This document shows, piece after piece, positions 14,699-53,100 of a stretch of 64,000 nt of DNA. The notes under the pieces are model-generated. The model worked only from the letters and a program-made list of their open reading frames with translations. It was not told the DNA's origin and did not search any database. The position numbers were made by a program, and so were the translations under genes. This DNA is from Ascidiella aspersa (taxonomy: Eukaryota): assembly GCA_963924565.1 (NCBI GenBank), contig OZ004612.1, positions 30,752,001 to 30,816,000 of the forward strand, in the 5' to 3' direction. The first letter of the stretch is position 1. Each line of letters opens with the position of its first letter.

Positions 14699-17600
14699 TC
14701 AGTGGTGTCGGCGCACATGCCTGGGTTTCTGCTTCGGCTTTGGCCACTTGGGCCTCACCACCCTTCCCATGAAAAGCACAGCTCCAGTCGGTTCGTGACG
14801 GATAAAGAACATGAATGGCCTGTCTATGCGGACATCGGTGGGGATAATCCGGGCAGACACCCCCAAAGCAGTGGCAGCGACCGCTTTTACCCCCTTTTCA
14901 TCAACCTCAATAACCGCTTTATGTGCCGCGTCGCTAACATACAGTCCTTCCATGTCTGTAAGCCCGGATAGGTCCGCGTGGTTTTGTGAAAAGATGTCGT
15001 TTACTCCAAGGCGCTTTAGTGATGTTTTCAAGTCTTCTAGCCCGTGTTCAACTTTGAACTTTGGCATTTCAACCCTGCATGGCCCCATGTCACGGCCGTT
15101 ATAAACCAATAGACGGTCGAGTTGTTCTCGGATGATGTCTTTCGATTGCGGATTAGTCAGGTGCGTGAAGTTGCCAGCTATGTGCGGCATAACGACCACA
15201 AAGTTCAACTCATGACCTGCAGGAGTATAGGATATTGTTAGCCGTGCTGGTTCGTACCGCTTTGAATGACGTCGTTTTATATGACTTAACCCAGCGTTTC
15301 TCAACCGTGGCCCTCGGAACCCCAAGGGGCCACGGAGCAGTTTTCAGAATATAGCAACAAAGGTTTGAATTTAAACAATAAAAAAACAGTGGTGGAAATA
15401 AATAGAAATTTCAAAGATTTCAAAGATCCACAGGAAAATACCCGCTTCTGCCACGGAGCAGCCACAAGCATATCTCAGTTTACTAATTAGCGTGTTAAAG
15501 TATTGTTTGTTTGTTTTTTGCTATGGCTTTAGAGACCTGTCTTGATATGTTATTTAAAAGTGTTTTTCGAATTACCAAGGTGGACACATAGTGTTTAGTG
15601 CTTATGGAAGGGGCCACGACTTTTTCAAGGTTGAAAACCACTGACCTTACCATACGTCCCGATTAAGGCGGGACAGTCCCCATTATTAGGGCTTTGTCCC
15701 GGCTTCACAAATAATTCCTAAAATATTCCGCTTTTTAGTCAGACAATATTTTCTAACCCGCACAGATGTTTTTGGTACAATAAGCATGAGTTTGTTGACT
15801 TAAATGCCGGTTTTTATACAATTGATTAGCGTTTAAACTTTAAAGTTACTTAAACCAAAGTGGAGGAAACAAAAACGTCATATTTAATTAATTTAAAGTT
15901 TCTCTCTTTGGTAATTTTCGGGCCTTTTCTATGTGTCCACAGCCTAGCAATGCGTCTTTTTACTTTTTACCTTTCTACAAACGCTAGTTTTTTATTATAG
16001 CACCCCAAACGTAAGCTACGATTCCGCCTGTGTATGTATTGTATACAAAGTTGTTGTTGGGTTGTTACCCATGTAACACGGAACGGAAGTTTTTGGACGC
16101 CATCTTGTTTTGCTTTTAATGTTTTGATTTTGTAGTAACCAAAAATGAGTTAAAAGTTTTACTCACAATTTCCAAAACAGCTAACGACTGTATAATGCGG
16201 GGTAGCTTACAGGCACAAATTTTGTGGCATTATCGAATTTATGACGTCATTGGGTTATTGACGTCATCCATTTTTTCATTGACGTCATTGCATTATTCAC
16301 TGATCTGCATGATGCTTGGGTATATATACACGGATCTGAAATGTAGCTTGATAATGAATTGCAAAGCCAAAAAGGTCGAGTAGATCAACATCGTCTTGAT
16401 TATTAAGACGTTTCGATACGAACTTGTATCTTCATCGGTTAATACTTTACGCTTTTTATTAAACAACTAAATTTAAAATGCAAATTTAAGCTTAAAGTTT
16501 TGCCCAACCATGCACCAGACATTTGACTGTGTACAATCACACTAGAGTTTTCTGTACAGCTGCAAGTTGAAATACAGGAAGCACTTTAGCGCCAAGTGCC
16601 CCGTAGTGCATCGGCAAGTGCCCGCTCCGGCTGCTTTCTTGGCTTAATTGTGTTAAACTGACATGTTGTTGTTTTTGGCGCCCCATTGAAATGATCGATT
16701 GCAATCGCGGTATTGTTCTTATAATCCCAACTTGTCAGGCTTGGGCGATTTTTAAAGCACTTTGCGGCTGAAATGTTCAGGTTTTTTAGAATTGTAACTT
16801 TATGCGTTTGAATGGCTCATGTGGAATTAGTGTAGCACGCATTTTTAACCTTGCACTTGTTCGGACAATGTGTTTGTTTTTCACATTTGAACCAAAACAA
16901 ATCTGTTATCAAGCTTAATTTCTGCATTATGTCGTCACAGTTAACGCTGTGTCGTCACAGTTGTGCGTTTTATTCAAAACAACTGGATTGACAAATGTGC
17001 AAAGGCGTTTATTAGGTTACTTTGAAATAATAATAACGCGAGTTTTTTCGGTGCATTTCAACTTTCCTCGGGAAACCCCGACTCGCGTCACTTGTTACGT
17101 CACAAAGCGCAACAATATGCTGTTATCAAGCGTCATAATGGAAAGCACCCAAATGCTTCGGAAACGCAAATGGTGATTTATCGCAAAAGGGCCACATTGA
17201 GAACCATCTCACCTTTTGTTTTCAAATAAACTCGCCAAACTACTACATGTCATGAAATGTTTGGTTTGTCACTACAAAATTCTTTAAATTATTAAAAAAG
17301 TATTTGAATTTATTTGCATTTAAATAGAAAAACTTTTGCATTTAAATAGATTTACCTTAAAAACTATATTCAAAACACGTCAAGTGATCCAATTTAGAGT
17401 TTTTTTGAAACCCAATAAATGTTTTCTGAAAATTCTTTATATGCCTATTTTTTTTATAAATACCCTGGTTTGCTCGTGATTAACACGTGTTACAATAAAA
17501 TGCTTTAAACTGACCTAACCTTAAATCTCATTTATCCAAGTCTTAAAGAGGAAATGAGCTAGTGTTTGTGGGTCCACGAAGGCCTTTTTGAAATATTTGT

Positions 17601-20600
17601 GTAGGTAAAAAAAACGTTTTAGCACCGATATATTTAGACTCCATTTCAGTTTCACATTTTTTGGACTGAAAACAACAGGTTTCCGAGGTCTGCTTGTTTT
17701 ATGACGTAAATTTATGACGTCAGCTTTAAAATTTTATGCCCAACCATCGTCTACGCCAGGGTTCCCAACCTGCGGTACGCGAAGGTTTTTTGGAAGGTAC
17801 GCGGTAGCTTTTGTTTTTCACACAAAACTAGATTCGGAGCTTAATATTTTGTTTATCTGGTTTCGTTTATTCCCCCGAGCCCATTCTTAGTACGTAACTA
17901 TGGCTGTTGTTTCGTAACATTACGATGTTCAAAACACAGGCCATGTCAATTGTCGACAAGGAGCACAGTTGCTTTGTAAAGTGTACAACGCTGTGGGACA
18001 GTGGGCGTTATTTATGTCAAATGCTTGCTCTTGATAGATATCACGCTGTAGTGTTAATTTAGTAGGCCAATATTATTATTCTGAATAAAATATGATTCAA
18101 TCAAATTAATTGTTCTGCGAGAAATGGTACGTGTCGCAGTACAGAGCGTCCAAGTGGTACGAGATCGTAAAAAGGTTGGGAACCCTTGGTCTACACAAAC
18201 CAAAACTTTTTTTAGAGGGTCCGTGTTGAAAAAGATTAAACATTTTTTTATGGGATTTTTAATGCTTAAGTGTGCCGCGAGACATTTGGCAATTTGTTTG
18301 CTGTTATTGGTAAGCTTTTTGATACAACTCTTTGTGTAGGATTAGAATACAATAATATATAAACATATATTTTCCTATACATTGTGTGTAAGGTTAATGT
18401 GTATTGCTATAATTTCGTTTATTGTGACATAACAGTAAAGCACTTAGCGAAAATTTTAGTAGGGGTGCACCAATATATTTATTTTCTGGGGGTGCGGTAA
18501 GGAGTAAAAGGTTGGGAACCACTGTACTACAGACACTCTTGTCTACCGTGCAGCTGACTGGAAGGTCATTTGGACCCATCGCTGCTACGGCCGTATCGCG
18601 CATCAATTTGTTTCTTCTTATATTTTGTGTATTTTAATTTCAGCGCCAACTGAAAATAAACATTACTTACTTACTTATGTTTGTGTGGTACTTACCAACA
18701 AATGGCAGCACGACAATTTCAGCCTTCAGTCGGTACATATGAACCGAATGACATTTTGCGTCGTATGACGTCATAATGGGTACTGTGACGTGCTCGTGAG
18801 GCGACACTTTGAACTTGCCCTTGAGGTTTGTGGAGGTGAATGAGTTCATCCAAGATGCCTGTGGAAAAACAACTCTTAACTCACTTAAGTACGTTTAACT
18901 CACTTAAGTGCGAGGACGTTAAACTTAAATTCGTTTAACTTGTGTTGTTAAATGTTTTTAGCTTTTTTTGAGCGAGTGCGTTTAGCTACTCACAGTGCGA
19001 GTGCGTTTAGCTCACCTTAAGTGCTTAAGTGCATTAACTCGCTGAATTGATATGAACCCACCTTAAGTGCAAGTGCGTTTATGAGGTAGATCTTGGTGTT
19101 GTGAGTGACTGAGTTGTGAGACACAAGATCGTGTATTTCATCGTCAGTTTGCTTCGAAGCGAACCTGTTCATCTTTCGACGAGCTCGCTGCGGGAAAGCC
19201 GCGAACATTACCTTCTTCACTGTTGCGTTGTTGTGGCTGGGATGGAATGTTTACAATTATGTCGATCTATTTACATCCAATGGTTTAAAAGCGCTGGTTA
19301 AACATATTGCGTCATATTGTTGTAGGGTCATACCATCCTTTGTTGTAATTACCGGTTGGTGTCGGCCTTTATTAACTGACACAAAGGCACTTAGACAGAC
19401 GATCGAATACACGTACCAACACCCGTAAAAATTCACGGACACACGGACACAAACATAGACACATGAACAAACATACGGACACACGAACAAACGTACATAC
19501 ACGCATAGAAACACGGATAGACAGACGTACAAACGGAAACACGGGCACACGAATAGAACAGACAAAAACATGGACACACATAGACACACGTACAAACAAA
19601 CGGACACACATAGACACGCGTACAGACACACGAACAGACTCACCCTATCACACGAAAAACACGTACAGACACTCGGACCCACGGGCACACGAACAGACAA
19701 ACAACAAACGAGCACACATAAACACACGGACAGACAAACAGACAAACGTACAGACACACTTAAAGACACACGAACAGACAAACAACAAACGAGCACACAT
19801 AAACACACAGAGAGACAAACAGAAACACAGACAAATTGACACGCGTAACAGACAGCCAAGTACAATTTAAGCATCAACACAGCTGTTGTAAGACTTTTAC
19901 CTCTTTAGTGTTTTCTTAAAGGACTTAAGAATCCTGACTCCCATGTCGGCGAATATCCTGTTTGCCCTCCTAAGGGTGAGGTTGCCCCCTGGGGCGAACA
20001 CCTGGTTGCAAAGTTCGGCCTCCGCATCTGAGGGTTGGGGAATCCCCTCGAGACGAAGCGCGGCCAAAACCTGCCGCTGGGAGTCGCCACCGAGCCCTGG
20101 TGGTTAAAAATGTTTTTGTGAGAAATTATTGCACAAATATTTTGGGACAGTTTTCTGTTTCCACTTTTCTTTTTTAGCTGAAGGTTACCAGTTTTCAGCG
20201 ATGAGCGTATTGGATGTTTTTTTTGATGGTTCAAAATTTATAAACTGACGTTACCTTTCCTGGCGAAATATATATATCTATTTTATTTTTTTAAGATTCT
20301 TTTATTAGTTTCTGACCTGAATTGCTAGCTTTGCTAGAATATTTTGCTGTTACTGATCAGGAATTAAGGTCTACATTTATCTTGCAAGGGTCAATGTGAT
20401 TTCCAATAATACTTATTCAGTGCAACATTCAAGAAATCATGCACAAATTTTTTGGATAGTTTTCTGTTTTTACTGTTAACAGTTTTTAAAACAGTTGTCA
20501 GCGATGAACGTTCTGGGTGCCATATTTCCTTTGGGTAAAATATGCCACTTTTTGCAAAAAAAGATCAAAACTTAATAAAAGAAGCAATGACTTTAAACTA

Positions 20601-22101
20601 CTATAGTTACTTTAACTTTAACATTCAACCAACGTAGATTGCCTTTGTGGTTCTTGTATTGCACAAAGCAGCAAAGTTTTTACAAAACAGTGGTTTTACG
20701 TTGTTTATGAATGCTTATTTAAAAGGTGTACGATCAAGGACTGTGTTATGTTAAAGAATTCGCTAGCATAATGTTAGTGAAGTACCAAGCCGCCCTTTGT
20801 AGATGCATTGTGTACTTTAGCGTTTTACTAATTCAATAGCTACTTTGACTGGAGCTCTTTTTCAATCACGCTAGTTTAACAATTTAACTGACGTTGATAC
20901 AAGTGCGTATCGGAACTTCTTTATTAAGATGATGTCGATCTACTCAAACTTTTTGGCTTTGTTATTTATTTTTAAACTATGTTTCAGGTCCGTGTTGAGC
21001 CCAACAAAATTAGTTTTGTTGGCAAAAAAACGAAGTTCGACATTATTGTTACTTTAGGACGGTCCCGGTATGACCGAGGTCGTGAGTTCGAACCTCACTA
21101 CAGGCTAGTTTTACAAATAGAATGCAGCAGGCAACGGTGCTGTGGTTGTTTCTCGACTCGCTCCCCTCTGAGCCTGTGTAGCTCAGTTGGTAGAGCGACG
21201 GTCCCGGTATGACCGAGGTCGTGGGTTCCAACCTCACGGCAGACTAGTTTTGTATATTTTTTTCGATGTTTGTTATAAAAGTTGAATGTATAGTCTTAAA
21301 AATGGAAATCAAGTGACACTGTTTAGCTACAAATTGTATTACAATGTTAAAAATATTTTCGCTTTATCATTAAAGATGTTCAAAAGTATTTTTTGTAAAT
21401 AATTCACCTGGGACGATTAGGGAAAGCACCGAAAATATCGAGATTGGCGAAAAGACGAAGTTTTTGTCTTGGGAAAGCCCCTTCTCTATTTCGTGGTTCA
21501 AGTGAAATGAAAATTCGTGCAAGGATCTGGCCACGCGATTCGAGAAGGCGCTAGAGGGCTGGTAGAGGACTCCGTTAGCTGAAATAATAAAAGATAAATC
21601 ATAAAAATTACACTTTTATAAGCGGCTGTTTCAGTAAACCAATCTTTAGTTTAATAATTAGTTATTTTTCTTAATTGTAATAAAAATGCAACTTTGTTAA
21701 ATATGGAAAACAAATCATGGAGCATAATGGTTGGAAGTTGTAGTAAGACTTATAAGAATATCAAAGCCCTTCTGTATGGGCTTTGAAAAGAATTAGTTAC
21801 ACTAAAACTTCATTTTTGGAGTAAAAAAGCCTTTTTGATTAAGTACCAATTTTATTATAAAAAATAAAAAAAAATTAAGTTACACTTTTTTCTTCTTTTT
21901 TTTATATATTCTCTTTCGGTAAAGCCATCTTTAGTTAAAAAATGTTTTTTTTCTTAAAATCGAAATCAGCCGCGAAACAAACTTATATTCGTTTCGGGTC
22001 CAAGTTTTTGAAGCATCGCTAGAAAATATACACAGTTTAAACTTACCTTGAAACACGAAGATTATTCCAAGCAGAAAGCCTAAATATAATGGATTCATCA
22101 T
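14699..22101 (-). CDS. Secreted serpin (serpin A), ~425 aa, 6 coding exons, predicted inhibitory with P1 Arg
   Basis: Exons (minus): 22101-22047, 21578-21408, 20096-19901, 19236-19062, 18858-18696, 15216-14699. All introns GT-AG, phases consistent, total 1278 nt. Signal-like MMNPLYLGFLLGIIFVFQA. Serpin motifs NFVFSPISI, LRRANRIF, IYLINALALKASW, MPKFKVE, hinge/RCL EKGVKAVAATALGVSAR-IIP, IDRPFMFFIRHEPTGAVLFMGRV. Confidence 0.93.
15292..15643. mobile_element. hAT-type MITE in the last intron of serpin A
   Basis: Ends CAGCGTTTCTCAACC / GGTTGAAAACCACTG. Flanks ACTTAACC and ACCTTACC (6/8). Confidence 0.7.
16401..16444 (-). ncRNA. Minimal type-I hammerhead ribozyme-like motif in a ~110-bp dispersed repeat
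   Basis: Minus strand TATTAA-CCGATGA-A-GATAC-AAGTTC-GTATC-GAAAC-GTC-TTAATA: 6-bp stem I, 5-bp stem II, GAAACGUC core with palindromic ACGU. U4 is C here. Activity untested. Confidence 0.55.
17757..18188. mobile_element. hAT-type MITE
   Basis: TIR CAGGGTTCCCAACCT / AGGTTGGGAACCCTTG. 8-bp flanks GTCTACGC and GTCTACAC (7/8). Confidence 0.85.
19430..19860. repeat. CA/CAGA-rich low-complexity minisatellite in serpin A intron 3
   Basis: Mixed ACAC/ACAG/ACGG units. GCACACGAACAGACAAACAACAAACGAGCACACATAAACACAC is repeated. It accounts for several spurious ORFs. Confidence 0.9.
21058..21112 (+). repeat. 5'-truncated second copy of the tRNA-derived element
   Basis: GACGGTCCCGGTATGACCGAGGTCGTGAGTTCGAACCTCACTACAGGCTAGTTTT is near-identical to the 3' two thirds of 21172-21251. 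Confidence 0.8.
21172..21245 (+). pseudogene. tRNA-derived pseudogene or SINE head (anticodon-position GGT), inside serpin A intron 2
   Basis: A-box TAGCTCAGTTGGTAGAGC, stem CGGTC/GACCG with loop CCGGTAT, T-arm GTGGG-TTCCAAC-CTCAC, followed by a TTTT run. The acceptor stem has mismatches, and position 33 is C rather than U. Confidence 0.7.
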
Positions 22102-23935
22102 GTTTATACTGCTATATTAATCTGGAAAAGACGTTGTAAATATAAACTGAAGATATGTTTAATTTAAACACAGAGAAGCATCATCGCATTTATTTAAAAC
22201 TTGCAAGTAACTTGAAAACATCGGAGCATATGAACTGGATGTTGTAGTTAGACGTAGAATAAATATCAAAGCTCATACAGAAGTAGGAAGCATTTTGAAC
22301 GTTTCGAATAACTCTGAGGATAATGGCTGAAGGTTATGACATCATCTCTGATTCTGTTTTAATAAGCTTTTTGGCAGGACTGATGATGCCATTTTTGGCG
22401 TAACTGCAGTATTCTGTCTTTTAATTAAATTGTTTAAATTATTTTCAAACCTTTACGGTTCTTTCTTTTTAATCACATATCTGAATTTTAGGCTTTTCGG
22501 TGAGAAAATTGTTCTATTTTTGCCCCTGCTACGTAGTAAAGTTTATAGAACAAATTTATTCTTACGAAAATGTGCTGCTACTTTTTCTTTTTACTCTCTA
22601 AAGGTTTACAATCTGAAAACGTAAATAATCACTTCCCCAGGCACTGAACGTATTTTTAAATCTCGTTTTATGTCCCAGCAAAAGCTTCAAGCCATTTCCT
22701 TTTACCACCGCATGCTCAGTTCTTACTGGAGCGTGTAATTGGCGGTTTCACACGCTGGCTTGGAACTGCTGGAATCTTGAGCATTTACTGCCAACCTCAA
22801 AATACCCAGGCGAGATTGTTATTGGCTGCTTATTGGCTTTAACCCGATCGCAGCAATAAGCCAGTTATTTGTGTCAATCCAGAAATGGAAAAGCGATCGC
22901 AATATGAAATATTTTTTTGCCAAGTGTTTTTGCACAACAGAAAAAAAATGAAGGAGAAAGCTAAATAGGTCGAGTAACTTGACATAATCTTTGGAAGACG
23001 TTTCGATTATAAAAAAACTTTAAAAAATGATGTCGATTTATTAATATCCAACATACATGAATGTTGTACGAAAAACAAACGTTTGTTTGTAAATTCACCT
23101 TCTTTATCATAACTCCATCTATTTTGGGCGAAAAGCTGGACTATATATTCTCTAACGATTTACAACTGGCATTCTTTCTTTATACTTATTGCTTTGTTTA
23201 ATGAAAAGTAAATTTTCTGCTCCAGAATCTCCTGCTTTTCATCAAACTGTTTTCAAAGTCCAACAAATTACTGTCAATAATAATCTGTTTGTAACGCATG
23301 TTATAAAAAACGAGGCAACTTTAAATTACTGGAAACTTAATTAGTATGAATATCAAAGGCAACACAAAAGCAGGCAAGATTTCAAACGTTCAAGAGATAT
23401 CCGGCACGTTCAAAACGGTACCTACCTCTGTATGAATTTTAATACATCTATTGCAAAGCTTAATTAATACACGATCTCGTTCTACTTGTGGCTCCATATA
23501 ACATTTTCACGGTAATTGCGTATTGATTGCATCCACAAAAACAAACCCATGATTGCTTTTTATCGATTTTAGCGCCCTTTCATTATAATGACACAAAACG
23601 TATAATTCAAGTTAAATGCTCTGTTCCAAAATAATCAATCAATAAGTCAATTCTCGATGAAGCTAGCTCAGCGATCCAAAAAATAAGACAAAGTATAACC
23701 GCTAAGCCTTGTCATCTAACTCTATTCACTGAATATTTGTAAGCTTAAGTTGAACAAAACAATAATACGATAACATCATTAAAATGATTCATGTCTTTGT
23801 ATTTGATTCGGAAAATGTCTTATTTAAAAAAAACATTCTCTTAACTTTTGATATGTCCTATATTTGACGTTTTACTACGGCACCAAATGACTTTATCATG
23901 TTAAAATAAAAAAGACAAAAATTGAAACGTTAAAA

Positions 23936-27162: not shown

Positions 27163-30100
27163 TCATCCAATCGGATTGCCGACTTTTCCCGCGAAAAGAA
27201 TCGCTCCGGTCGCATCGTGACGTAACAAGTAGAGGAAGGGCTTATTGACCTTTTGAACCCGGGTCACGACCGATCTAATTCCGACCGATATGACCGTTGA
27301 CCCCGCCGCCTCGACCCCTTGCTCAGTGGCGCGTAACTTCGCTTTGTGACGTATGTCTTGCACGTGGAGGTGCTCGAAGTTGCTCATGCGTGACAGGTCC
27401 GCGTGCTGTGCGTCAAATACGTCATTGACGCCCATGCGACGTAATACTGACGTCATATCCCTGACGTCATACTCCATCTTGAACTTAGGCATTGTGATCT
27501 GGCACATTACGATCTCACGTTTTCCACGATTGCGATCTAAAATGTAGAATAAGGCAGAAATAAAAAAAAAAGTAATGATAATAACAAAAAACAAATTTTA
27601 AATGCGTAGAATGAATTTCAAAGCTCATACAGAAGTAGGTGGCATTTTTTAAACGTTTCGAATAATTCTTAATATTTTTTCAAAATGCTACTTACTTCTG
27701 TGTGGGCTTTGACATTTTACTACTGAAACCTCCAGCCATTATGCTTCACAGTTTTAAAGGATATTTTGGTCTATGAAAAAGTAGAAAAATAAAAACGTGC
27801 TTAATTAGAAAAAAAATATCAAAAATAGTATTTAACAACTGGACATTACTGAACTTCTTAAAGCATAAGCAAATTTTGACATAACACCTGGAAAAATACC
27901 TTTGAACGTTTTATTTCGCTTGTTTAAACATTATCGCATCTGATCGCGATTCGTTTAGTCCAAAATATCGGGTATCGATATTTGAACAAAATGTCAAGTA
28001 TCGGGCATTTCTAATTTCAACTTGACGTCGTACTGTCTTGTTGTTCCAGTGTTTATAGCAGAGTAGTAACCCACCTTGCCATATTTGGTTGATAAGGTTC
28101 CCAACTTTCTCCACCATAGTTCCATCCTCGTTGTCATAAAGTAAGCTGAAGTTACCTGCCTCTCTTGGCATTATCATCATCATACTGATGCTGTCTGTAA
28201 AAATAACAGATTTTAAACAAGGGTTCTTAAACACAATGTTCTGTTGCGTCGTTTTAATGAATCCATCTACATTGAATTTCGCTAATGACGTGTACATTTG
28301 AGCCTAGTGTTACGAAAAGATAACTGTAGCCATTGATTAATAATGATTTTCTGACACAAACAAATGACAAATTTGCGTTGCTGTGTATAAATTTTACGGA
28401 AAATTAGTTTCTTTAGCCTGATGTGTTTTAAGTTTACAAACTTTTTCTAAAGGCTAGAAAAAAGTTTGATAACTACTGGTTCGAAGGTTTGAATGATAAT
28501 AAGTCAATTTAGAATCAATAATTACAGTAGTCACTGATGTGAATGTTCTATTAAAACAACAGGCATTTTGACGTCACAATGGCTTAAGTTTGTAGCATAA
28601 CTTCTTCATTACAAGGCAACTGACATGTTAACAATTGTTCTTGACGTATTTAAACATCGTGTTTGGAGCACTGATGCTTTTGGCCAGAGATGTCTTTAGA
28701 TTTCGTGTTCTAATGAATTGTTTTACAAGTATTGCTTGTAGACATGTTAAATCGATGGCATTCGTGTGCGGATTTTTTACAAGCTTACATCGAAACATAT
28801 ACTGCAGTTTAAAACTATTGGAGAATCAAGCTTCAATAGCAACTAACGTTGCATAGTAGCTGTATTTTGTGTATTCATTTTGCAGTATTAGCAGCAGACA
28901 GTTACGCTTACAAATAGTCTGTACATCTTGTTTTACATGAAATGCTGCATTGAACTGTCATGTATGGTTTGTTTTGTTTTATCAGCTTTGCTGTCAGATA
29001 CTGGTGTACGTTAAGAGCTCAGCTTTATACAGATAACGCCTATGCAACCGACAAAACAGTTTCCAGCTAATATAAAAAGCCTATACTGGCTGTGTCATTT
29101 CTTTAAATGTGGGCAGAGAGTACAATAGAACCCCGCTGATTCAGTTCTTTCGGCACCAGTTAGTTTCGTTTTAGCACAGAGCATTTCTTCAGCAAGATAA
29201 CTGCTATTGTTGCCACTTCACAAAGCTATAAGCTGTCTTTAGTTACCCTTATATTTTGCATTGTACTTTCATTGAACTAATTGAGGATGCAGTAATATCA
29301 AAGCCCATACAGAAGTAGTTAACATTTTGTGGAAGTTTTGAATAAATCTTGATTCTTGAGATATTGGCTGTAGATTGCATATGCGCGTAAAATGAATATC
29401 AAAGCCTATTCAGAAGTAGGCAACATTTTTTATGTTTTCAATAATTCATGTTGAAAATGAATAAAGAGATAGTCAAAACGAAATGTTACCTACTATATGT
29501 GGGTTTTGATTTCTTACTTCGGTTAACTACATTCTATAATAGAGGATGTAACTTGATGCACACTTCTTGTATAGAGTGATTATGTTAATTAAACCACAAG
29601 ATTACCCAAAACTCGCCTAATGTTGTTGATAAGACAAGTAATGTGAAATGCTAGATATATTTTTTTGCCTAATCGTGTTGTCTCTAAAAATGCAAAAATA
29701 CCGTTATTAGCAAAACAAACAAGTCTTGGATTTCTTGGCTTTCTTGTTTCGTTTAAAATACATTTATTTGCAAACAAACCATACAGTTTTTACCCAAATT
29801 GAAAACGTTAATGTTGCGCAAAGCACTTAGGTAGCTTGATTCGCCGTAGATGACACTTGTATTATAATAGCAACGCAACAATCTGTTAAAAGCAACATTA
29901 AATGCAACAATGTGTTAAATAGCAGCACTTGTGTCATTATTGTTGCTTCCTTATTACCACCCCCACATCCAGCTTTTCACTAAACTGCATTCTCGTATGC
30001 TATGCACTGTTCTACACCGCATATGGATGGCAGTGGATACAGTTATTGTATGTGGGCTGACACTAGCATGTTAAGTTAGCGTACTGTAGAACATTTAGTG

Positions 30101-33100
30101 AAAAGTAGTTGATGAAATATATCACTAAGTTATCTGTGAGTTTCGTCTCGTTAGTTTTTGTTAGACCAATCGTATTTACGCGTTTGTCGTGCATATGAAT
30201 GGATATATCTCTTGCATATGATTTGACACTAGTTAGCGTTGCAATGTTAACGGACAGTTAGGCGAAATGTAGTTGAACTTTTGGCTGAGTTACTAATGTG
30301 TTGTTTTTAGGTTTTTAGTCGAGTCAGTTTTTGTTTTAATTAAAAACTTTTGCAAAGTGGAATTGTTGCAAGACCATTCCTATCTGTAAGTTGTCAACTT
30401 AATATACATTAGTGTTTCATCTTTTTAATGTATAAGAGCATTTAAATGTATAAGTACTTCTATGAAATGTACTGATGGCTGCATGTAATGACCGACACAT
30501 AAAACAAAACAAATTAATTGCCAGCATCAGGCTTGTCCGATAGTATCAAATAAGAGTCGATACCCGATGCCGAGTTGTAGTATCGCTAAGGTGGGATCGG
30601 AGCCGATCCAATACCAAACTAATATAGGTATTGTAGATATGATTTGCTACCTAATGCATGAATTTCCACCTTAAATGGTTGAATTCATCGTAAAATAATA
30701 GTTAACAACTGGTGGTAAATAAACTTATTTACGCTAAAGCGAATTTGGGCCTTTTAACATGAGAAAATTCCCTACGAGCGTTTTAACTTAATCTATTTAG
30801 TTTGTTTGAGCTTAGTAATGACGTCATTGGTATCAGATCGAATCGCGATATGTTTTATCTAAATAATAATGTCGACTATCGGACTCCACTAGTCAGCATT
30901 AGGTTCGACTATATCACATTAGTTTATCGCTCTCACCTGCCAGCGACAGTACGGTGACGTCAGAGTTGATGACGTCGTCAGCGTACATGGTGCACTGGTA
31001 CTCCTTGTTGTACATGGTTGGCACGTTGATGAAGTGGTGGGGGGAGAGCCAGAACTTGCGGGATCGCGTTTTGGAGAGGTCGAAGCCGATCTTCCACGAA
31101 GCCTGTGTGGAAATAAATGTAGAAGTATTTTTTTAAACTGATGTTTAACATTTTAAGCAGTGGTTTCTAAACTTTTTCGAGTCGTTTGAATTTTAAATGA
31201 CAAATTTTACTAATAAGTTGTAAAAAGAAAAAAATTGTCAGTTGCCAAAATGTTTTCCTCTTATAATTGCTGAAATGAAACGAACCTTAGTTCTTAGCGG
31301 GGTGTTTTAACTTGAATCAAACCTGACATTTTAACTAAAACCCAAATTTCAGTAAAATTTTATCTTGAAATTTAAGTATTTTCTAAGACATTGTACTGAA
31401 AAAAGGCGAAAAACAAATATTCGCTCACCTTCAGATAGAGGGCGTTAACGAGCAGTAATCTTGCATCGTTCGTGAGACTCCCGGCCGGAAGTATTTCGGC
31501 GATCAACTTCCGGGTTCGTTTTCTCACGTACTTGTTGATCTTCTGTCTAGCGACCTCAGTCGAGCCGCTGATGTCGATCCGTCGCGCTTGAGTGGCGTTC
31601 AAACTAGAGAAAGGCATCAGATGAATTTACAATATCTATAAAAAAAGGCGTATCTTTATTGAATCCAAAACCATCTGCAGCAGGTTTCTGCTTGTCGATC
31701 ACTGTTCCGCTGACGCGTATATTAACAATAAAACTTTAGGTCTAAGTCGTTTTTTTTTTAGATGTTGTAAAAATTCTCGTTTTTTTAAACTTTGAGTTTT
31801 ATTGCTTGTTTTAAAATGTGAGAACAAACGATAAATAAGTAAAAAAACAGCATTGGCCAATGAGAAAATACAAAATAAAATATATTTTTTTGTCAGTGAG
31901 GAGACAAAAAAGTTTGATTTAATGGAGCCCATACCTCTACTTCACTTTTGCTTTCTTTTCCGAAAAAAATTAAATCTTTAAATCCGCGCTCTATTATGAC
32001 TTTTATCTTAAATAAAAATTGGTCAATTTGAACCCGTTACCCCTGCTTCACTAAGTTTTTAAATTTGCGCTCTGTCCCCAGTCGTGACTTCTATCTTGTA
32101 AAAAAACAAAAAATAAAAATAATAAAATTGGGTCAATTGTCAATATAATTCACTTTGGTTTACAAAAAAGTTTAAATCTTCAAATCTGTGCTCTGTCCCA
32201 CCTTGTTACTTCCTTCTTGTACTTTTTCTTGAGCCTGACGCTTCTGTCGACGTAAACCCGGTTGGCGCAAGTAAGCTTGTACTTCCGCGTTCGCTCGAAC
32301 AACGTCGTGTACATCTCTGTGAGGTCATCACTACTGACGTCACGTTCAAGTCTCATGGCCGCGTTGACTTGGGCGAGCGACTGACCGCTAAGACCTATTG
32401 GAAGTTTAACATTTAGCAACGATTTTTTAACAATTTAATCAAGGATTGTTAAACTGTGCTTTGTGCAACCCTGGGTTGTTTTAATCTTTCCAAGGCCGTC
32501 GCATTTAATATCTACCACAAATAGTTTTATGACGTAAAAAACCTCGATCCACGTGAAGCAAAAATTGAATTTAGATTTTAAATTGCTTGTAAGTATAGTA
32601 ATTTAATTTCTATACAAGTAACTAATGTAGCACAGTAACGCAATACCAAAATGTGGCTTGGTTTACATTTAACTGAGACAAATAAATGATTTACACAAAT
32701 ACATTTTATATTTTATGTGTATGATTAAGCATCCCCGCATCCCCTTGGAACAGTTAGGGGTGCGAGAACCCCTGGTTAAAAACCTATCCTATATAGTTGT
32801 TACCTGGCCTGAGCATTGCGAGCGCTGTGTAGAGAGACAGAGGTGACAACACGAGGTTCTGACTCGCGTTTGCGTTTGGCATCTTGCTCATTAGGTCAAA
32901 GGTGAAGTCTTGGAGGGATTGTGACGCAACAAGGGTGAAGGGGCGGTGTTTAGGGGGTGAAGGTGAGGGTGCAGAGGGGTAAGCATCGTTGTCGAATTCA
33001 TCGGTTAACTGTAAAAAAAGAGATTTGATTTAAGCTAAATCTTTTTAAGTTACAGCTTTAAGGAAAATTATTAGCTGTGAATAAGGGATTTTTTTTTAAT

Positions 33101-33638
33101 ATTCGTAAATTCGTGATTTTAGCTACATTTTATGTAATTACAGCTTTAAAATTTAATTAAACCACATTTTATTCAAAACTAACAGAAAACCTTTTTAATT
33201 GTACTTGTAACTTTTATTAGAAGTTCATTTTGTAAATTATTATCGTTTTATTAAAGCATGATGTGCCAGTAGTTGGTATAAACTTTATATTAATCAAAAC
33301 AATCAAAAATGTCACAATTTTGGAAATTTCGAAAATTTATATAAAAATGTTGGTTTAAACTTACCCCATATTGATAATCACTCAACGAATATTCTGAAAA
33401 TAAACGAAACGGTTTTAAAAGTTGTTAAACAAACAATGATTTTTTAATTATACCACACACAAAAAAAATTACTCCAGTAGTGCACGGTAAACCAAATTAT
33501 AAATTAATTTATATGGAATATATGAAAAACGAGCAGAAAAAACATTTTCTTACCTTCATAATTTTGAGGAAACCCGTCGAATTCGTCGTGGCAGTGTGAC
33601 GTCACAATGCACATGCAGACGATTGCTAACACGATCAT
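27163..33638 (-). CDS. Secreted serpin (serpin B), ~448 aa, 8 coding exons, RCL P1-P1' Arg-Ser, acidic N-terminal extension
   Basis: Exons (minus): 33638-33554, 33393-33365, 33008-32804, 32394-32202, 31603-31429, 31102-30937, 28194-28075, 27536-27163. GT-AG, total 1347 nt in frame. Signal-like MIVLAIVCMCIVTSHC. Motifs NLVLSPLSL, LTCANRVY, LLVNALYLKASW, MPKFKME, EQGVEAAGSTVISVGIR-S, VNKPFLYLLRHDATGAILFAGKV. Confidence 0.93.
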
Positions 33639-35618: not shown

Positions 35619-38600
35619 ACCGCACCTGTTATTTTACTAGCGATTTTCGTAATGGTTGGAGGTTGTAGCAAGACGTAGTAAGAATATCAAAGCCCATACA
35701 GAAGTAGAAAGCATATGAATATGTTAAATATGAATAAAGAGTTATTCGAAACGTTCCCAATGATACATTGCTCTGTATGGGCTTTGATATTCTTACTTTC
35801 TTTTCACTTAATAACTTTGGTGTTTGCTAGCAACGCAAAACTACGCTACTTCAAACCTGCATTAAAATCCCCTTAAACCATGCACCTAGAACTTAGAGCA
35901 GCAACTTTTAAACGTTAAAAATATAAAAAGAACCGCTTTTAAAAAAAGAAGAGGCTTCTTTTTGAAACGCCAAGAATGCAAACCTTATAATGACGCACGT
36001 TAAAATACCTGTGGGGTTAACCACCCGTATAATGCTTTCGCTTGGTATATCATTGCATGTTGTGAAGGGCGGTAAACTTGTCTAATCGATTTATGGGTTT
36101 GGTCGCATTTGTCTTTATTATAAGCTTAAATTGTGGTTGCAATGTTAAACAATGTTGACAAGCTTACGCACCACCGTTTTTTCTGGGCAAAGAGTTAAAA
36201 AACACACAATAGCGCCTTTTTATTTTTTTTCTGGTGTATACTTGATTCTAATGCAAATTTAAATGACAAATTTTACAATATTTGCAAGTATTAAAGGCTC
36301 ATTCTAGATCACGTAAAATCGTATCTCAACTACATGAAAAACCTTGATTTTACGCATTTTTTCAATCATCATAGGAACGTGGTTAAATGCGATTTTAAAG
36401 CATTCCAGGAGATAACATGACTTTCGGCAAACAAGCCCTTAGCTTTACAGGACAACACCATAAGCTAATACCACGAAACACAAAATTTAACATCTCAATT
36501 AAATGTTGCTGAATACACTTTAGAATTGTCTTATTTTACAATCTGATACTTGACACTTTTTATATATTAGGAAACCATATTCCCAGCTGTCTCTATATAA
36601 AACCTTATACTTTTTTAGTGTTTTCTACACTCACCTATTTAGCATGTGATCGAAATGCACTTAAAATTAACCTTAACTAAAATAACTTAAAAAAAAACAA
36701 TCCGCATCGTGTATGTACGGCTTGTACGCTTACAACCAACCAACAACAAGTAAGTACCTCATTTCACTATTCCTGCAATCTGAACATATTGCACCTTAAA
36801 AAACAATTTCAAATCGCCTTTTTTTGCAAACTTGCAACACAACAACTCTTCTATTCATCGGGGAACATCGGAGGGAGTCTTGTCCATAACTGCGGTTCAA
36901 GCGCTTCGTAATTACATCTTTGCACCTGACTTAATTGATGCTCTCAGGTTCCACGTTGAGTAAATTGTGGATTAAGTGCTTCGTTCCATCCGCCTTAACA
37001 ATCGGGCGTCTGTTCTGTAGCATTCTGGCAACACGCCGCATTTTAAACTGCAAATTTTATCAAGATGTTCGCTGGCATTTTCCTACAAGTTTCTCAAAGA
37101 GTCCATTCTTACAAATACTGAGCATAATGGCTGGAGGTTGTTGTTAGACGTAGACGTAGAATGAAAAAAACATCTCATACAGAAGAAGTTAGCATTATCG
37201 GCCATTATCTTGTATTGGCATTAAAATTCCTTCTACTTTTAACTACAACCTCCAGCCATTATCTTAAGATTTATCCCAAACGTTCACAAAATTCTACAGT
37301 CTACTTAGTCATCCCACTTTAAAATCCAATTCGAAATGACAATTTTCACCGCTGCTTTTCATATTTATGCTCTTATATTCCATTATTGTGTCACAGTCAA
37401 CGCCACAATGAAGGCATTATCGCGTCAGACAAACCGCCAAGCTTGAAATTCGATGAAGAATTTCTCATTTCTCGCCGCCTGAACGCAATTCAAGTCCGCT
37501 GTGGTCTCCATATGCGCAGATTTAACGCCATCTGCCGAAATCCCGGGGTGCCAGTGAAAAATCCACAGACATTAAGAGCTCTTTCCTCACCCCAGGAATC
37601 GCAGGCTCAATGCTCTATCTACGTCACAGTGCCACTTGTTGCGTCACACTGCACGATAACTCGCTTGGCACGTGTAAATGACGTCACACTTGGCATTGTG
37701 TCGAGACAGGCGGCGATAGTGTGTGTTTGCAAACCTTCCTCTTCTTGATAAGACACGTTCTTTTCAGCCTTTCTAAAAGGTTCTAATTCTGTTGTTGTCT
37801 GAAATGGCTTCTATGTTTGGAATATGACGGACTTGTTAGGCTGTTCTGTGCAATCTCGTGGGATTATGTAGTCGGTAAATATATTGCCTGGAGAAATGCT
37901 ATTTCTGTGAAATCGCAAAATAAGCACGATACCACCCCCGTGTATTAAACTCCCCTTGCGGGCTGCAGCGCAAATATTAGTGCTCCTTGCTTGGCATTTG
38001 TTGTTTGTTTCTAGAGACTAATGATTCCTCATTTTGTGGCGAAACATATTCCTCGTAAAGAACTTATAAATGACTTTGATTAAGACAGAAAAGTGTTAAA
38101 GAATATTTGGTTCTATTTGAAGTAATTGTCATCATTTACGGGATTTTTGAGGGAGAATAAATATCTTGTTTTTACACATTTAGTTTGCCATTGTCCCTTT
38201 GTTTTTTTAGGCTTATTCATCTTTTCTTTGTTTTAGAAGTCTTTATCTGCTGCAGTTACGCAGACGGCTTGGTTTTAAGGGAGAAAGTAGCGGATCTAAA
38301 CACCTTTAACACCAATTATAGCTATTTAATCAATAATTTGTGTGCTCTGAGATTTCGGTGTCATTCACTTTGAAGAAGGCGACTTGAATAGGTTGCAGAA
38401 ACGTTGAAAAAATATAAAATTACTAGAGAGTTTTTTGATTAATGTTATGCCTGGCAACAACAGTTTATATATACTGCTATTGATTTGCCTTCACATTTAA
38501 ACGCCACTCGATAAACTGTTAGAAAACCAATTATAATCAATATTCACAACAAAACACACAAAGCAATCAAAATTCCTAAGCACAGCCAATACTTGAGCAA

Positions 38601-50100: not shown

Positions 50101-53100
50101 ATTTCCCTTAAAGCGGTGGTCGGCAACTTTTTTCGTCGCGTAAAACAAAGTGGGTCATTAAAAATCTGTGGTGGGTCACTTTGTGACCCGCGGGACAGTG
50201 GTTCGCCATCCCTGTACTAGAGCTACTATTGATATTACTGAGACTCAACATTATAATTTATGAAAATTCAGAAAATACAAGAATACAAGGATCGTAGGAT
50301 TATTGCTTTTATTTAATGGTCGGCAAACTGTGGGCCGCGAGTTATTTTCTTATTTCTACCGTTACGTCGTTGTGGGTCGCAGGATAGCCGTAAAAAGTAC
50401 CAAAAAAATGTAGAAAAGTTTCGCAACCAAATGACATTTTAGGCCTCTGTAAATTCTTTGTTTGTTGTTAAGACAACCCACTGTTTTTCGAAGGTCGCTG
50501 GTTCGAATCCCACCTTACCCTTAACCCTATTAATCCTCCCTTTCCACGCAGTCTCCCTCCTCTCATCCGACTTCCGTCTCCAAACTCACAAATTCAAACG
50601 TAAACAAACGCAACGCAAAAGGGGAAACCCCGCTTCACCGGGCCTGCATGTTGGGGCAACCTGGACGTGTGGCCCAACTCCTGGGGGTGCCTGGGGTGGA
50701 ACCAAACGTTCCCGACCACGCCGGATGGACTCCCCTGCATGAGGCCTGTAACCACGGCCACTTGGAGTGCGCGAGAGCGCTTTTGAAGCTCCCTCTAGCA
50801 GCTAAAGCGACACCTGGTGGCGATAAAGGTTTGTTGTTTGTTATTTTAATTTTATACTTTTAGATTGGCGTGACGTCATAACCATTGCGTAATGTATGGC
50901 GCGTCCTGTGAGTAAGTGTGACGTCATTTTGCAATGTTTTGCAAGAAAAAAAAGGGGGAAAGAAAAAGACAGAAAATAAAAAATAAAACTTATCTTATTA
51001 TTCAACTTGGGTATATTTCCTTTATTACTTTTCTAACTTTGTGGTGTAACTTTTTTTCTTCCTTTTATCAGTTAAATATTCAAGAAAGGCGCTGTGCTTT
51101 TAGTTCCTTATTGATGTGTTTTTACCGTTAAGCTTGTGCCCGTGGATCATCTGGCAGTCATTCGCTCGCCTTGTTCTTCTAATTTTAACGTTAACCTGGA
51201 CATAAACTTACCTATATACCTGTATACAACACGTTTCGACATTTCAAGGAGTTTATTTAAATATGGATCAGTAGCTTAACACATTAACCGAAAAGTTCTA
51301 AAATCAATACTTATCATGGCCACCTAGCGGTCTTTTTAATGCACATTTATCCACCGGTAGATGTCGCCATAACCACCCACTTGTACTTCCCAAGGTACTT
51401 CCCCCATGGCAGCACCTGAGGGTTCACCACAGGCTGAGGGGGCAAACACCCCCACACTGGCCATCGATCTGCTCGCCTGCCCAGAAGAGGGCACCACAGC
51501 GCTACACGACGCCCTCAACAATGGCCACATAGAAATCGCACGATTGCTGATGGAGAAGGGAGGCGTGGAACTCCTTTATGTCGTGGACACACAGGTTTGT
51601 GACGTCATTTGCTTGAACACGTATGGGTTGTTGAGTGTTTTTTTTACTCTCACATGCGACCTTGAATTTCTTGATAAATTCTTGCTATAACGTTATTGTA
51701 GCTGCACAAATTTAATTTGCTTCTTAAACACCTCGGGCTCCACCTTTGATAGATGATGTTCGATGTTCGGCCATATTTCACTCACATTTACCGATGAAGA
51801 TACAAGTTCGTATCGAAACGTCCTAATCAAGACGATGTTAACCTACTCGACCTTTTTGGCTTTGCAATTCATATTCAAGCTTTTATAGATCCGTGCACAG
51901 TGCAGTGGTACATTTTATGTTTTTATTGTTTCACTAAAACACTCGTATCATTGCAGGGTAAAACACCACTTGAGGTTTGTGTCACCGATGAGGTTCGATC
52001 CCTGGTCCTTGAGATCGCGTGCCACATCGCAGCTCTCCACTTCAAACCAACAAACGTGATGGAAACTGATGAAGTAGAAGGGGAAGTATTTCTGCAACCG
52101 ATCAGCGCAAAAGAGTACAATAAGGTAAGGGTTGGTTGAGAAAAATATACAGAAAAAAGAATTAAAAAAGGAGGTGGCTAGTTGTGGTAACGCATAACAT
52201 GTCTAATAAATACCAATATTTATCTTACCGCAACGTTAAAAAGGGTTTGAAAAGGGATTTTTGCGTAACTGAAGACTGACTTAAAGGTATGCTTAAAAAC
52301 GTGAAAGTTAGCCGGAACTGTCATGGACGGCGATCCGGTAATATATTTTATGTTGGCACGCGTTATTTTTTTACCAAGTCATGTCCCTTTTTTGCCAGGC
52401 TATCCTGCAAACTACTTTAATGTGTTTGAACTAATATTTTAGTTACATATTTGTGCATTACATCGAGCGATAAGTCAGGTTTAAGGCACTAGTTTTAGAC
52501 ACCCTGTGATGACGTAACTTTGTAACGTGATCTCTTAAAACTTGCAAAGATGTACACTGGGGCATTTCTTCCTCAAGCAGAAATTTCGTGATTTTCAAAG
52601 AGGAATGTTTAATGCTTTATGTTTAAGGGTGTCCAAGTTTTATATACTGATAGTCATCGGTTAACTTAACAGTTTAAAAATGTGGTGAAATTATAATTTT
52701 AAGTCTATTTTTGAACAGAATAAACAGCAAAATAATTCCGTTTCGTTGAAGTGACTTTGAAAAAAGCGATTTCCCTTAATCCAGGGGTCACTCTCTTAGG
52801 GGTCTTGGGCGGCTTTTAAGGGGTTTTTGAAGGCCTAATTGAAAGTTTGGTGTGTGATTTCTAAAATGGATTACATTTCTCAAAACTAAACAGTACTTCC
52901 TCCTAAAATATATTTAGACTTAATTTTAGTTTTCATTAGTTTGAGTAAAACAGCAGGTTTCTTAGATCTGCTTGTTTATGACGTCAATTTATTACGTCAT
53001 CCTTAAAATTCCTTGCCGATCCTGATCCACGTGTTTATTTAGGAGTTTGTGTTGAAATAGTTGAATACCTCTGCTATGCTCGAACACACTTTGTTACATC

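What the first reader, a model, noticed from the sequence alone, without database searches (positions are those of the whole stretch)
32804..33638. Serpin B has a heparin-cofactor-II-like acidic Tyr tail plus an antithrombin-like Arg-Ser bait
Seen: after the signal peptide the protein reads HDEFDGFPQNYEEYSLSDYQYGLTDEFDNDAY-PSAPSPSPPK. This has two DEFD repeats, five Tyr in acidic context and a Pro/Ser linker. The body has strongly basic patches (RSVRLKKKYKKE, RQKINKYVRKRTRK), and the RCL is EAAGSTVISVGIR-S. Known: heparin cofactor II uses a sulfotyrosine-containing acidic N-terminal tail displaced by glycosaminoglycan binding to basic helices, and antithrombin has P1-P1' Arg-Ser. Inference: a glycosaminoglycan-activated, exosite-docking inhibitor of a trypsin-like protease in an invertebrate chordate, either convergent with or ancestral to vertebrate coagulation serpins.
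Basis: partly seen in the sequence, partly recalled or inferred. Interest (0 to 1): 0.7.

Follow-up and report, generated by a model that had tools for sequence, protein, structure and literature searches.

The report
Sea-squirt serpin with acidic tyrosine tail
A sea-squirt protease inhibitor of a known family carries a conserved, so far unremarked, negatively charged tyrosine tail and a large positively charged surface, which hints that it evolved a sugar-assisted docking mechanism separately from the vertebrate anticoagulant heparin cofactor II, but nobody has tested this.

Summary
A minus-strand 8-exon gene (33638-27163) encodes a 448-aa secreted serpin with an acidic tail (10 Asp/Glu, 5 Tyr), two basic stretches and P1-P1' Arg-Ser. 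It is the orthologue of Ciona Ci-Spn-1 (urochordate group U1): 4 of 5 core introns match exactly, tree support 99. A tail-less Ci-Spn-2/Not2 orthologue lies beside it, as in Ciona. All 4 orthologues with an intact N-terminus have the tail with a YxxY pair; 0 of 8 other U1-type serpins do. The interpretation needs correcting. The basic surface is helix E/strand 1A/helix F, while helix D, the heparin site of HCII and antithrombin, is acidic. Arg-Ser occurs in 11 of 16 Ciona serpins, P2 is Ile, not Gly, and the introns are not those of HCII, so ancestry to coagulation serpins is unsupported. Best reading: a polyanion-binding inhibitor of a trypsin-like protease whose probably sulfated tail docks on a basic exosite, convergent with HCII (about 0.4). 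No function was tested. A known family; the tail-plus-patch design was not found in print.

The parts
33554..33638 (-). Serpin B exon 1: signal peptide (about residues 1-16), first DEFD, Tyr27
   Evidence: ATG and GT donor, phase 1; mean hydropathy 3.2 over residues 2-13; bin enriched in run X3 (45.9 against about 3-9) and 0.53x in X4
33365..33393 (-). 29-nt micro-exon 2: Tyr30, 35, 37; completes the conserved YxxY pair
   Evidence: AG/GT with polypyrimidine tract; needed for frame; only candidate found; joints not displayed
32804..33008 (-). Exon 3: second DEFD, Tyr48, Pro/Ser linker, helices A-B; ends at intron 67a
   Evidence: Pfam Serpin 2.8e-7; RNA reads and X3 depth 318
32202..32394 (-). 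Exon 4: helix C, helix D, strand 2A, helix E; ends at intron 136b
32300..32332 (-). Helix D (residues 128-138): acidic, unlike the heparin-binding helix D of HCII and antithrombin
   Evidence: mapped from the model of the Ciona orthologue; charge counts
32213..32245 (-). Basic stretch 1 (residues 157-167): strand 2A-helix E loop and helix E
31429..31603 (-). Exon 5: strand 1A, helix F, strand 3A; ends at intron 191c
   Evidence: Pfam 4.1e-11; exon 5-6 joint in 2 reads of X4 and one X3 contig
31507..31548 (-). Basic stretch 2 (residues 190-203): helix F and its C-terminal turn; Arg200, Arg202, Lys203 are basic in all orthologues and mostly His/Asp/Gly in tail-less paralogues
30937..31102 (-). 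Exon 6: strand 4C/3C gate with Arg242, Arg244, Lys245 (basic in orthologues), conserved Cys266; ends at intron 246a
28075..28194 (-). Exon 7: strand 3B, helices G-H; phase-1 intron absent from paralogue A
   Evidence: homology to orthologues; no Pfam hit alone
27163..27536 (-). Exon 8: C-terminal serpin core and stop; the 3' UTR runs to at least 26561
   Evidence: Pfam 1e-30; X3 contig piece 26561-27536 ends at the acceptor
27271..27324 (-). Reactive centre loop P17-P1': inhibitory-type small-residue hinge, P14 Val, P2 Ile, P1 Arg412, P1' Ser
14699..22101 (-). Tandem paralogue A (6 exons, 425 aa), Ci-Spn-2/Not2 type: no acidic tail, P1-P1' Arg-Ile, basic helices E/F (13 Lys/Arg), basic His-rich C-terminal tail

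Best explanation
Serpin B is a secreted, inhibitory group-U1 ascidian serpin, the orthologue of Ci-Spn-1 (shown by introns, tree and tandem partner). It traps a trypsin-like protease at Arg412-Ser413 by the standard loop-insertion mechanism (inferred from hinge and P1). [quoted passage not shown] The disordered acidic tail, probably sulfated at the conserved YxxY pair in the Golgi (inferred), acts as a hirudin-like tether to a basic exosite on the target protease, giving specificity and speed. Polyanion mainly concentrates or bridges the partners; it may also free the tail. This works like HCII in outline but with a different polyanion site and P1, and arose separately. With no true clotting factors in Ciona (PMC3299649, passage), the target is more likely a MASP/C1-type or other ascidian extracellular protease than thrombin. 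Step odds: identity 0.95, inhibitory with basic P1 0.85, polyanion binding 0.7, tail as protease-exosite ligand 0.5.
For: Tail in 4 of 4 orthologues with intact N-termini (B, Ci-Spn-1 P0276, Cs-Spn-4 in the printed alignment, Clavelina P0005) and 0 of 8 other full-length U1-type serpins. YxxY kept in all four; shuffle odds 0.37, 0.04, 0.11 for the three tested (pattern chosen post hoc). Each tail has the aromatic-acidic pair that defines hirudin-like motifs, and madanin's exosite-binding pair has the same spacing (PMC9372746 section 9). Tail disordered in the Ci-Spn-1 model, pLDDT under 50. Helix E-strand 1A-helix F holds 17-20 Lys/Arg in the 4 clade members against at most 11 in 140 other serpins; extra basic positions are clade-specific. 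In PAI-1 these three elements form one ligand-binding region (PMC9731859 passage). Ascidians make heparin and dermatan sulfate (PMC2527998 passage); C1 protease exosite binds sulfotyrosine motifs. Gene expressed; 7 of 7 displayed coding variants synonymous.
Against: No biochemical test exists. Tail-less paralogues also have basic helices E/F (A 13, P0017 14, Not2 11 Lys/Arg), so patch and tail are not strictly coupled, and tail plus patch arose on one branch, a single event. Helices E/F lie far from the reactive loop and at a site where ligand binding can restrain sheet A. Only 1 of 5 Tyr in B passes the recalled strict sulfation rule. Only 4-5 of 8 residues in B's hirudin-like windows are acidic or aromatic. 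Ciona databases also hold tail-less models of the orthologue (P0174 'isoform X2', P0175, P0018). The 140 control serpins are mostly prokaryotic or unnamed metagenomic proteins, not matched secreted animal serpins. No target protease identified.
Confidence: 0.42

Rival explanations
1. HCII-type switch: at rest the tail masks the serpin's own basic patch; glycosaminoglycan displaces it, and only then does it dock on the protease, giving a very large activation.
For: Opposite charges on one chain, both conserved and enhanced in the same clade; Pro/Ser linker gives reach; this is how HCII is described (PMC3601010 passages; PMC4026541 passage).
Against: HCII's coupling runs through helix D, which is acidic here. 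P1 Arg is already a good bait, whereas HCII has Leu (lamprey HCII loop; Leu444 in a reference title). Tail shorter and less acidic (10 Asp/Glu in 45 residues against 14 in residues 42-75 of a 75-residue extension).
Confidence: 0.2
2. Anchoring only: the basic face fixes the serpin to sulfated glycans of tunic or basement membrane and the sulfated tail binds a matrix protein or receptor (as PEDF uses separate heparin and collagen sites); neither changes the inhibition rate.
For: PEDF has a basic heparin region and an acidic collagen region (PMC3196545 passage); sulfotyrosine in acidic N-terminal tracts binds collagen-like proteins (PMC9372746 abstract); U1 shares intron 67a with group V4, which holds PEDF; the patch is far from the reactive loop and is present in tail-less paralogues.
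Against: The hinge and basic P1 are conserved as in inhibitors; YxxY spacing fits exosite ligands; identity of Ci-Spn-1 to PEDF is only 20%.
Confidence: 0.25
3. The tail is only a charge counterweight or spacer that keeps a very basic protein (core pI about 9.8) soluble during secretion and may be clipped off; Tyr spacing is incidental.
For: Tail length and sequence vary freely (61-74 residues before helix A); DEFD doubling is lineage-specific; the most basic U1 members are those with tails.
Against: Paralogue A is as basic overall (net +19 against +10) and has no tail; YxxY is conserved across three lineages at 42-45% core identity.
Confidence: 0.1
4. True ancestor or orthologue of vertebrate HCII or antithrombin, with the tail inherited from the tunicate-vertebrate ancestor.
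For: Intron 191c is shared with group V5 (antithrombin) (PMC4150122); tunicates are the vertebrate sister group.
Against: HCII's V2 introns are 192a, 282b, 331c; none match. Ci-Spn-1 is 24% identical to antithrombin, no closer than to MNEI (25.7%). Against solved structures antithrombin ranks 12th and HCII 54th of 60 shown by sequence; fold matches are undiscriminating. The published tree keeps U and V groups apart. The tail clade is nested among tail-less U1-type serpins.
Confidence: 0.03

Closest known systems
Ciona Ci-Spn-1 / Cs-Spn-4 (urochordate group U1; XP_002128201.1) and Clavelina CAK8692768.1
   Same: Orthologues: 42-44% core identity, same core introns, tandem with a Spn-2/Not2-type gene, acidic Tyr tail with YxxY, very basic helices E/F, acidic helix D, basic P1 with Ser at P1', bulky hydrophobic P2.
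   Different: B has 5 Tyr and a doubled DEFD, a Pro/Ser linker and a 29-nt micro-exon; Clavelina has Lys at P1. Ciona's flanking marker genes were not found in this window. No functional study found for any of them.
Heparin cofactor II (SERPIND1, clade D, group V2)
   Same: Secreted serpin with a flexible acidic N-terminal extension bearing Tyr in acidic context, two acidic repeats, and a basic surface on the body.
   Different: Basic surface on helices E/F, not D; P1 Arg, not Leu; shorter tail; different introns; no sign of orthology; no thrombin orthologue expected as target.
Antithrombin (SERPINC1, group V5) and amphioxus BjATl
   Same: P1-P1' Arg-Ser; intron 191c; BjATl shows that heparin-accelerated thrombin inhibition by an invertebrate chordate serpin is already reported (PMC3299649).
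   Different: P2 Ile, not Gly; helix D acidic; no three disulfide pairs (3 Cys in the core); antithrombin has no acidic Tyr tail.
Group V4 serpins (PEDF, alpha2-antiplasmin, C1 inhibitor, lamprey SpnV4_1)
   Same: Intron 67a; Val at P14 in the lamprey V4 loop listed; separate basic and acidic binding regions in PEDF; lamprey SpnV4_1 is an Arg-P1 inhibitor modestly helped by heparin.
   Different: Four of five V4 introns differ; identity to PEDF 20%; the published analysis finds no orthology.
Hirudin-like sulfotyrosine motifs (madanin, complement C4, gigastasin)
   Same: Aromatic-acidic pair and a two-Tyr cluster within six residues in a flexible anionic segment.
   Different: Sulfation and binding are not shown; B's motif is less acidic; here it is attached to a serpin.

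Membership tests
Serpin superfamily, inhibitory type | Serpin domain | tested here: met
   5 of 7 serpin-B exon pieces scanned hit PF00079; orthologue model pLDDT 85 matches serpin folds
Serpin superfamily, inhibitory type | Small-residue hinge P15-P9 and 17-residue loop to P1 | tested here: met
   P17 Glu, P15 Gly, P14 Val, P12-P9 Ala-Ala-Gly-Ser, P1 Arg; consensus recalled
Serpin superfamily, inhibitory type | Covalent complex with a protease | not testable with these tools
   needs recombinant protein
Urochordate group U1 (Ci-Spn-1 type) | Introns 67a, 136b, 191c, 246a | tested here: met
   B introns fall at Ci-Spn-1 residues 111, 174, 232, 288 with phases 1, 2, 0, 1; read by hand on the printed alignment these are antitrypsin 67, 136, 191, 246
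Urochordate group U1 (Ci-Spn-1 type) | Intron 274a, present in one paralogue only | tested here: inconclusive
   B has a fifth phase-1 intron that A lacks, but it maps about 7 positions later on the printed alignment, in a gap-rich segment
Urochordate group U1 (Ci-Spn-1 type) | Clade with Ci-Spn-1; tandem same-strand pair with Spn-2 | tested here: met
   SH-aLRT 99, quick tree only; A beside B; best hits P0005/P0018 for B, P0026/P0022 for A
Urochordate group U1 (Ci-Spn-1 type) | Flanking bZIP, pleckstrin-like, lactase, SEC23 genes | tested here: inconclusive
   150 of 165 GC-rich ORFs scanned; only ankyrin and kinase hits; short exons would be missed and the window may be too small
Heparin cofactor II (V2, clade D) | Acidic N-terminal extension with Tyr | tested here: met
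   45 residues, 10 Asp/Glu, 5 Tyr
Heparin cofactor II (V2, clade D) | Sulfated tyrosines in the tail | not testable with these tools
   1 of 5 Tyr passes a recalled rule; 2 each in the Ciona and Clavelina orthologues
Heparin cofactor II (V2, clade D) | Basic glycosaminoglycan site on helix D | tested here: not met
   helix D net negative in all 4 clade members; four basic residues follow it in B (141-146), only two of them mostly kept in orthologues
Heparin cofactor II (V2, clade D) | P1 Leu | tested here: not met
   P1 Arg; HCII Leu
Heparin cofactor II (V2, clade D) | Introns 192a, 282b, 331c; nesting in PI4KA | tested here: not met
   phases and positions differ; no PI4KA hit
Antithrombin (V5, clade C) | Gly-Arg-Ser at P2-P1' | tested here: not met
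   Ile-Arg-Ser
Antithrombin (V5, clade C) | Heparin-binding basic helix D and three Cys pairs | tested here: not met
   features from PMC4476131; acidic helix D, 3 core Cys
Hirudin-like motif | Phe/Tyr then Asp/Glu at positions 2-3, rest acidic or hydrophobic; Tyr cluster within six residues | tested here: inconclusive
   pair and cluster present in 3 of 3 tails tested; 7 of 8 residues fit in Ciona, 5-6 of 8 in B and Clavelina
Hirudin-like motif | Binding to a protease anion-binding exosite | not testable with these tools
   target unknown

The most novel reading that the evidence does not exclude
Ascidians independently evolved an HCII-like serpin: a sulfotyrosine YxxY tail that docks on the anion-binding exosite of a MASP/C1-type or other trypsin-like protease and is switched by ascidian dermatan sulfate or heparin binding at a helix E/strand 1A/helix F site, a polyanion-activation site not among the helix D or H sites usually described for inhibitory serpins. 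It would supply the missing endogenous partner for the anticoagulant glycans of ascidians.
Probability: 0.22. Interest if true: 0.75.

Novelty: new member of a known kind. Interest (0 to 1): 0.42.

Why it matters
HCII's acidic extension is called unique among serpins (PMC3601010 abstract). A conserved acidic YxxY tail in one ascidian serpin clade, paired with an extreme basic face at a non-canonical site, offers a clean case of possible convergence with a built-in control (the adjacent tail-less paralogue). Ascidian heparin and dermatan sulfates activate mammalian HCII and antithrombin, yet their native protein partners are unclear; this names a testable candidate, available in the model animal Ciona. 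It does not move the origin of vertebrate coagulation serpins.

Tried and rejected
No genome is held for the window. Word-index searches with exon 8 and exon 5 gave 1 distant hit of 135 candidates and 0 of 83; orthologues came only from the full HMMER scan and the profile search, which added just two more Ciona models. No stolidobranch or other named ascidian orthologue was retrieved, so the tail is seen in three lineages only. Complex prediction of the Ciona tail (23-58) with its own core: no verdict, score 0.01; not used either way. Surface electrostatics could not be computed (no coordinates returned), and B itself was not folded; the Ciona orthologue stood in. The careful tree did not finish; the quick tree has no vertebrate serpin, so V-group placement rests on introns, PMC4150122 and PDB ranks. 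In that tree P0018 was grouped with the tailed clade although its record is N-terminally truncated; it and P0017 were left out of the tail counts. The read lay was swamped by repeats: 564 joints and 497 variants were hidden. The run search listed no RNA holder by record; X3 is taken as RNA from its splice joint and exon-only depth. Atlas search gave only generic chordate serpin clusters. Earlier-finding look-ups returned nothing. An earlier phase-1 donor in exon 7 (near 28153) was rejected because it would delete helices G-H that orthologues keep. PDB sequence and fold ranks do not single out HCII or antithrombin.
Full report
Observation. The window is AT-rich animal DNA. The finding covers the first three exons of a minus-strand serpin gene of eight exons, 33638-27163, all with AG/GT ends, giving 448 residues. 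After a hydrophobic signal peptide come 45 residues with 10 Asp/Glu, 5 Tyr, two DEFD and a Pro/Ser linker. The tail needs a 29-nt micro-exon: skipping it frameshifts, and my scan found no other candidate. The basic stretches and the reactive loop are as quoted but lie in exons 4, 5 and 8. P1-P1' is Arg412-Ser413. Both charge clusters exceed composition shuffles (0.33% and 0.7% of 20000, post hoc windows). The gene is transcribed from the minus strand: run X4 has 12 of 12 reads in the expected sense at one exon 3 site and 2 reads over the exon 5-6 joint; run X3, taken as RNA, shows depth 318-445 on exons against about 3-9 in unique introns, and 45.9 in the exon 1-2 bin. The exon 1-2-3 joints were not among the 15 displayed of 579. 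The 7 coding variants among the 40 displayed rows are all synonymous.

Identity. A second serpin (A, 22101-14699, 425 aa) lies downstream on the same strand. PMC4150122 (whole text and supplement read) defines Ciona group U1 as a tandem pair, Ci-Spn-1 and Ci-Spn-2, with introns 67a, 136b, 191c, 246a and 274a. B's first four core introns map exactly to these by way of Ci-Spn-1 residues 111, 174, 232 and 288 (read by hand on the printed alignment); its fifth has the right phase, is missing from A, but maps about 7 positions later. The HMMER scan of cluster representatives gave Clavelina and Ciona proteins as best whole-protein matches; Ci-Spn-1 itself came as P0276. B is 42-44% identical to these in the core and 31-35% to the other U1-type proteins, and groups with them at SH-aLRT 99 in a quick 31-row tree; A groups with Ci-Spn-2 (named Not2 by its source) and the second Clavelina protein at 90. 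Ciona's flanking genes were not found (150 of 165 candidate ORFs scanned).

The tail is a clade feature. All 4 orthologues with an intact N-terminus have an acidic Tyr tail: B, Ci-Spn-1, Cs-Spn-4 (printed alignment only) and Clavelina P0005. None of 8 other full-length U1-type serpins has one (A, P0022, P0026, P0034, P0035, P0049, P0052, and Cs-Spn-3 in print; truncated P0017 and P0018 excluded), and 0 of 140 other serpins had an N-terminus with two or more Tyr and net charge -5 or lower (these controls are mostly prokaryotic or unnamed). What is kept is a YxxY pair and an aromatic-acidic pair, not the DEFD doubling. PMC9372746 (abstract, passages, section 9) defines hirudin-like motifs by that aromatic-acidic pair and describes two-sulfotyrosine clusters, including madanin's at the same spacing, as ligands of basic exosites on thrombin and complement C1. 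The fit is good for Ciona (7 of 8 residues) and partial for B (5-6 of 8). By a recalled sulfation rule only Tyr30 of B passes, and two Tyr each in Ciona and Clavelina. The tail is disordered in the AlphaFold model of Ci-Spn-1 (pLDDT under 50; mean 85). Against this, three Ciona database models start at an internal Met and lack signal peptide and tail (P0174, P0175, P0018).

The basic surface is not HCII's. [quoted passage not shown] Residues 157-205 hold 17 Lys/Arg in B and 18-20 in orthologues, against at most 11 in 140 other serpins; tail-less U1-type proteins hold 7-14. Arg200, Arg202, Lys203 and the gate residues Arg242, Arg244, Lys245 are basic in the tailed clade and mostly not in paralogues. 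HCII couples through helix D (PMC3601010 passages), and heparin sites of inhibitory serpins are usually near helix D or H (PMC10090351 passages). [quoted passage not shown]

The bait is not antithrombin-specific. Arg-Ser is listed for 7 of 11 C. intestinalis and 4 of 5 C. savignyi serpins and occurred in 14 of 135 countable control serpins. Antithrombin's signature is Gly-Arg-Ser (PMC3299649 passages); the clade has Ile, Leu, Phe or Trp at P2 and Clavelina has Lys at P1. A bulky P2 suits thrombin poorly (recalled).

Ancestry. HCII's group has introns 192a, 282b, 331c (PMC4476131 passages). Ci-Spn-1 is 24% identical to antithrombin and 25.7% to MNEI; among solved structures antithrombin ranks 12th and HCII 54th of the 60 shown. 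The tailed clade is nested among tail-less U1-type serpins. Any likeness to HCII is therefore convergent. The only other vertebrate link seen is intron 67a and a Val-P14 hinge shared with group V4, which is weak.

Mechanism. Most likely (0.42): a secreted inhibitor of a trypsin-like protease, held or bridged by sulfated polysaccharide at helices E/F, with a sulfated tail tethering it to a basic exosite of the target. Shown: identity, secretion signal, charge layout, conservation, expression. Inferred: inhibition, sulfation, polyanion binding, exosite docking. Rivals: a full HCII-type displacement switch (0.2), anchoring without kinetic effect (0.25), charge counterweight (0.1), true ancestor (0.03). 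Ascidians make heparin and dermatan sulfate (PMC2527998 passages), but Ciona lacks the principal clotting factors (PMC3299649 passage), so a MASP/C1-type or developmental protease is the better guess for the target; that choice is inference.

Novelty. The gene is a new member of a described group, and the tail is visible in the 2014 printed alignment, but that paper does not mention it. A search on Ci-Spn-1's name and accessions found only that paper; nine other searches showed no listing on this serpin's tail or function. The library lacks most subscription papers; older biochemistry of ascidian plasma protease inhibitors and an acidic N-terminal tail in protein Z-dependent protease inhibitor are recalled, not checked, and may lessen the novelty. 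Heparin-accelerated thrombin inhibition by an amphioxus serpin is already reported. Other papers seen: PMC4026541 (passages and section 14), PMC3034685, PMC6337849, PMC9110684, PMC3196545 (passages only). Interest 0.42: real, conserved, testable in Ciona, but functionally unproven and not an ancestor of coagulation serpins.

Noticed in passing
window 14699-14750 (-): Paralogue A ends in a basic, His-rich C-terminal extension of about 15 residues that its Ciona and Clavelina orthologues lack; P1-P1' is Arg-Ile.
   Followed up: partly
P0022 (Ci-Spn-2): Its source name is Not2. PMC3034685 mentions a notochord gene Noto2; I did not verify that they are the same gene, but if so the pair may act in notochord or sheath matrix.
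   Followed up: partly
window 28075-28194 and PMC4150122: The paper's text says intron 274a is missing in Ci-Spn-1, its figure legend says Ci-Spn-2. Here the Spn-1 orthologue has the fifth intron and the Spn-2 orthologue lacks it, siding with the legend.
   Followed up: yes
window exons 6 and 8 (Cys266, Cys336): Two Cys are conserved across nearly all U1-type serpins, suggesting a group-specific disulfide.
   Followed up: no
window 27310-27324 (-), intron at 32803: U1 serpins share intron 67a and a Gly-Val-(Glu/Lys)-Ala hinge with vertebrate group V4; the lamprey V4 loop listed resembles that of Not2.
   Followed up: partly
window about 33675 (-): A strong pyrimidine-rich AG acceptor sits about 37 nt before the start codon, with no high-depth upstream exon evident within 3 kb in run X3; possibly a spliced-leader trans-splice site.
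   Followed up: no
window 50534-51687 (+): Ankyrin-repeat exons, followed by further coding-looking exons to about 53531.
   Followed up: no
window 57080-58021 (+): Intronless protein kinase ORF (Pfam 4.6e-74); reads like an Aurora kinase (recalled), possibly a retrocopy.
   Followed up: no
window 21075-21240, 22240-22315, 29300-29450, 31676-31735, 35650-35800: High-copy interspersed repeats, the first tRNA-like; very high contig depth in DNA runs and present in RNA reads.
   Followed up: no
window 19438-19835: Degenerate GT-rich tandem array in an intron of paralogue A.
   Followed up: no
window 62641-63679 (-): ORFs with Pro/Gly/Val repeats and Tyr/Gly/Asn repeats, no clear Pfam hit; possibly a secreted structural protein.
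   Followed up: partly
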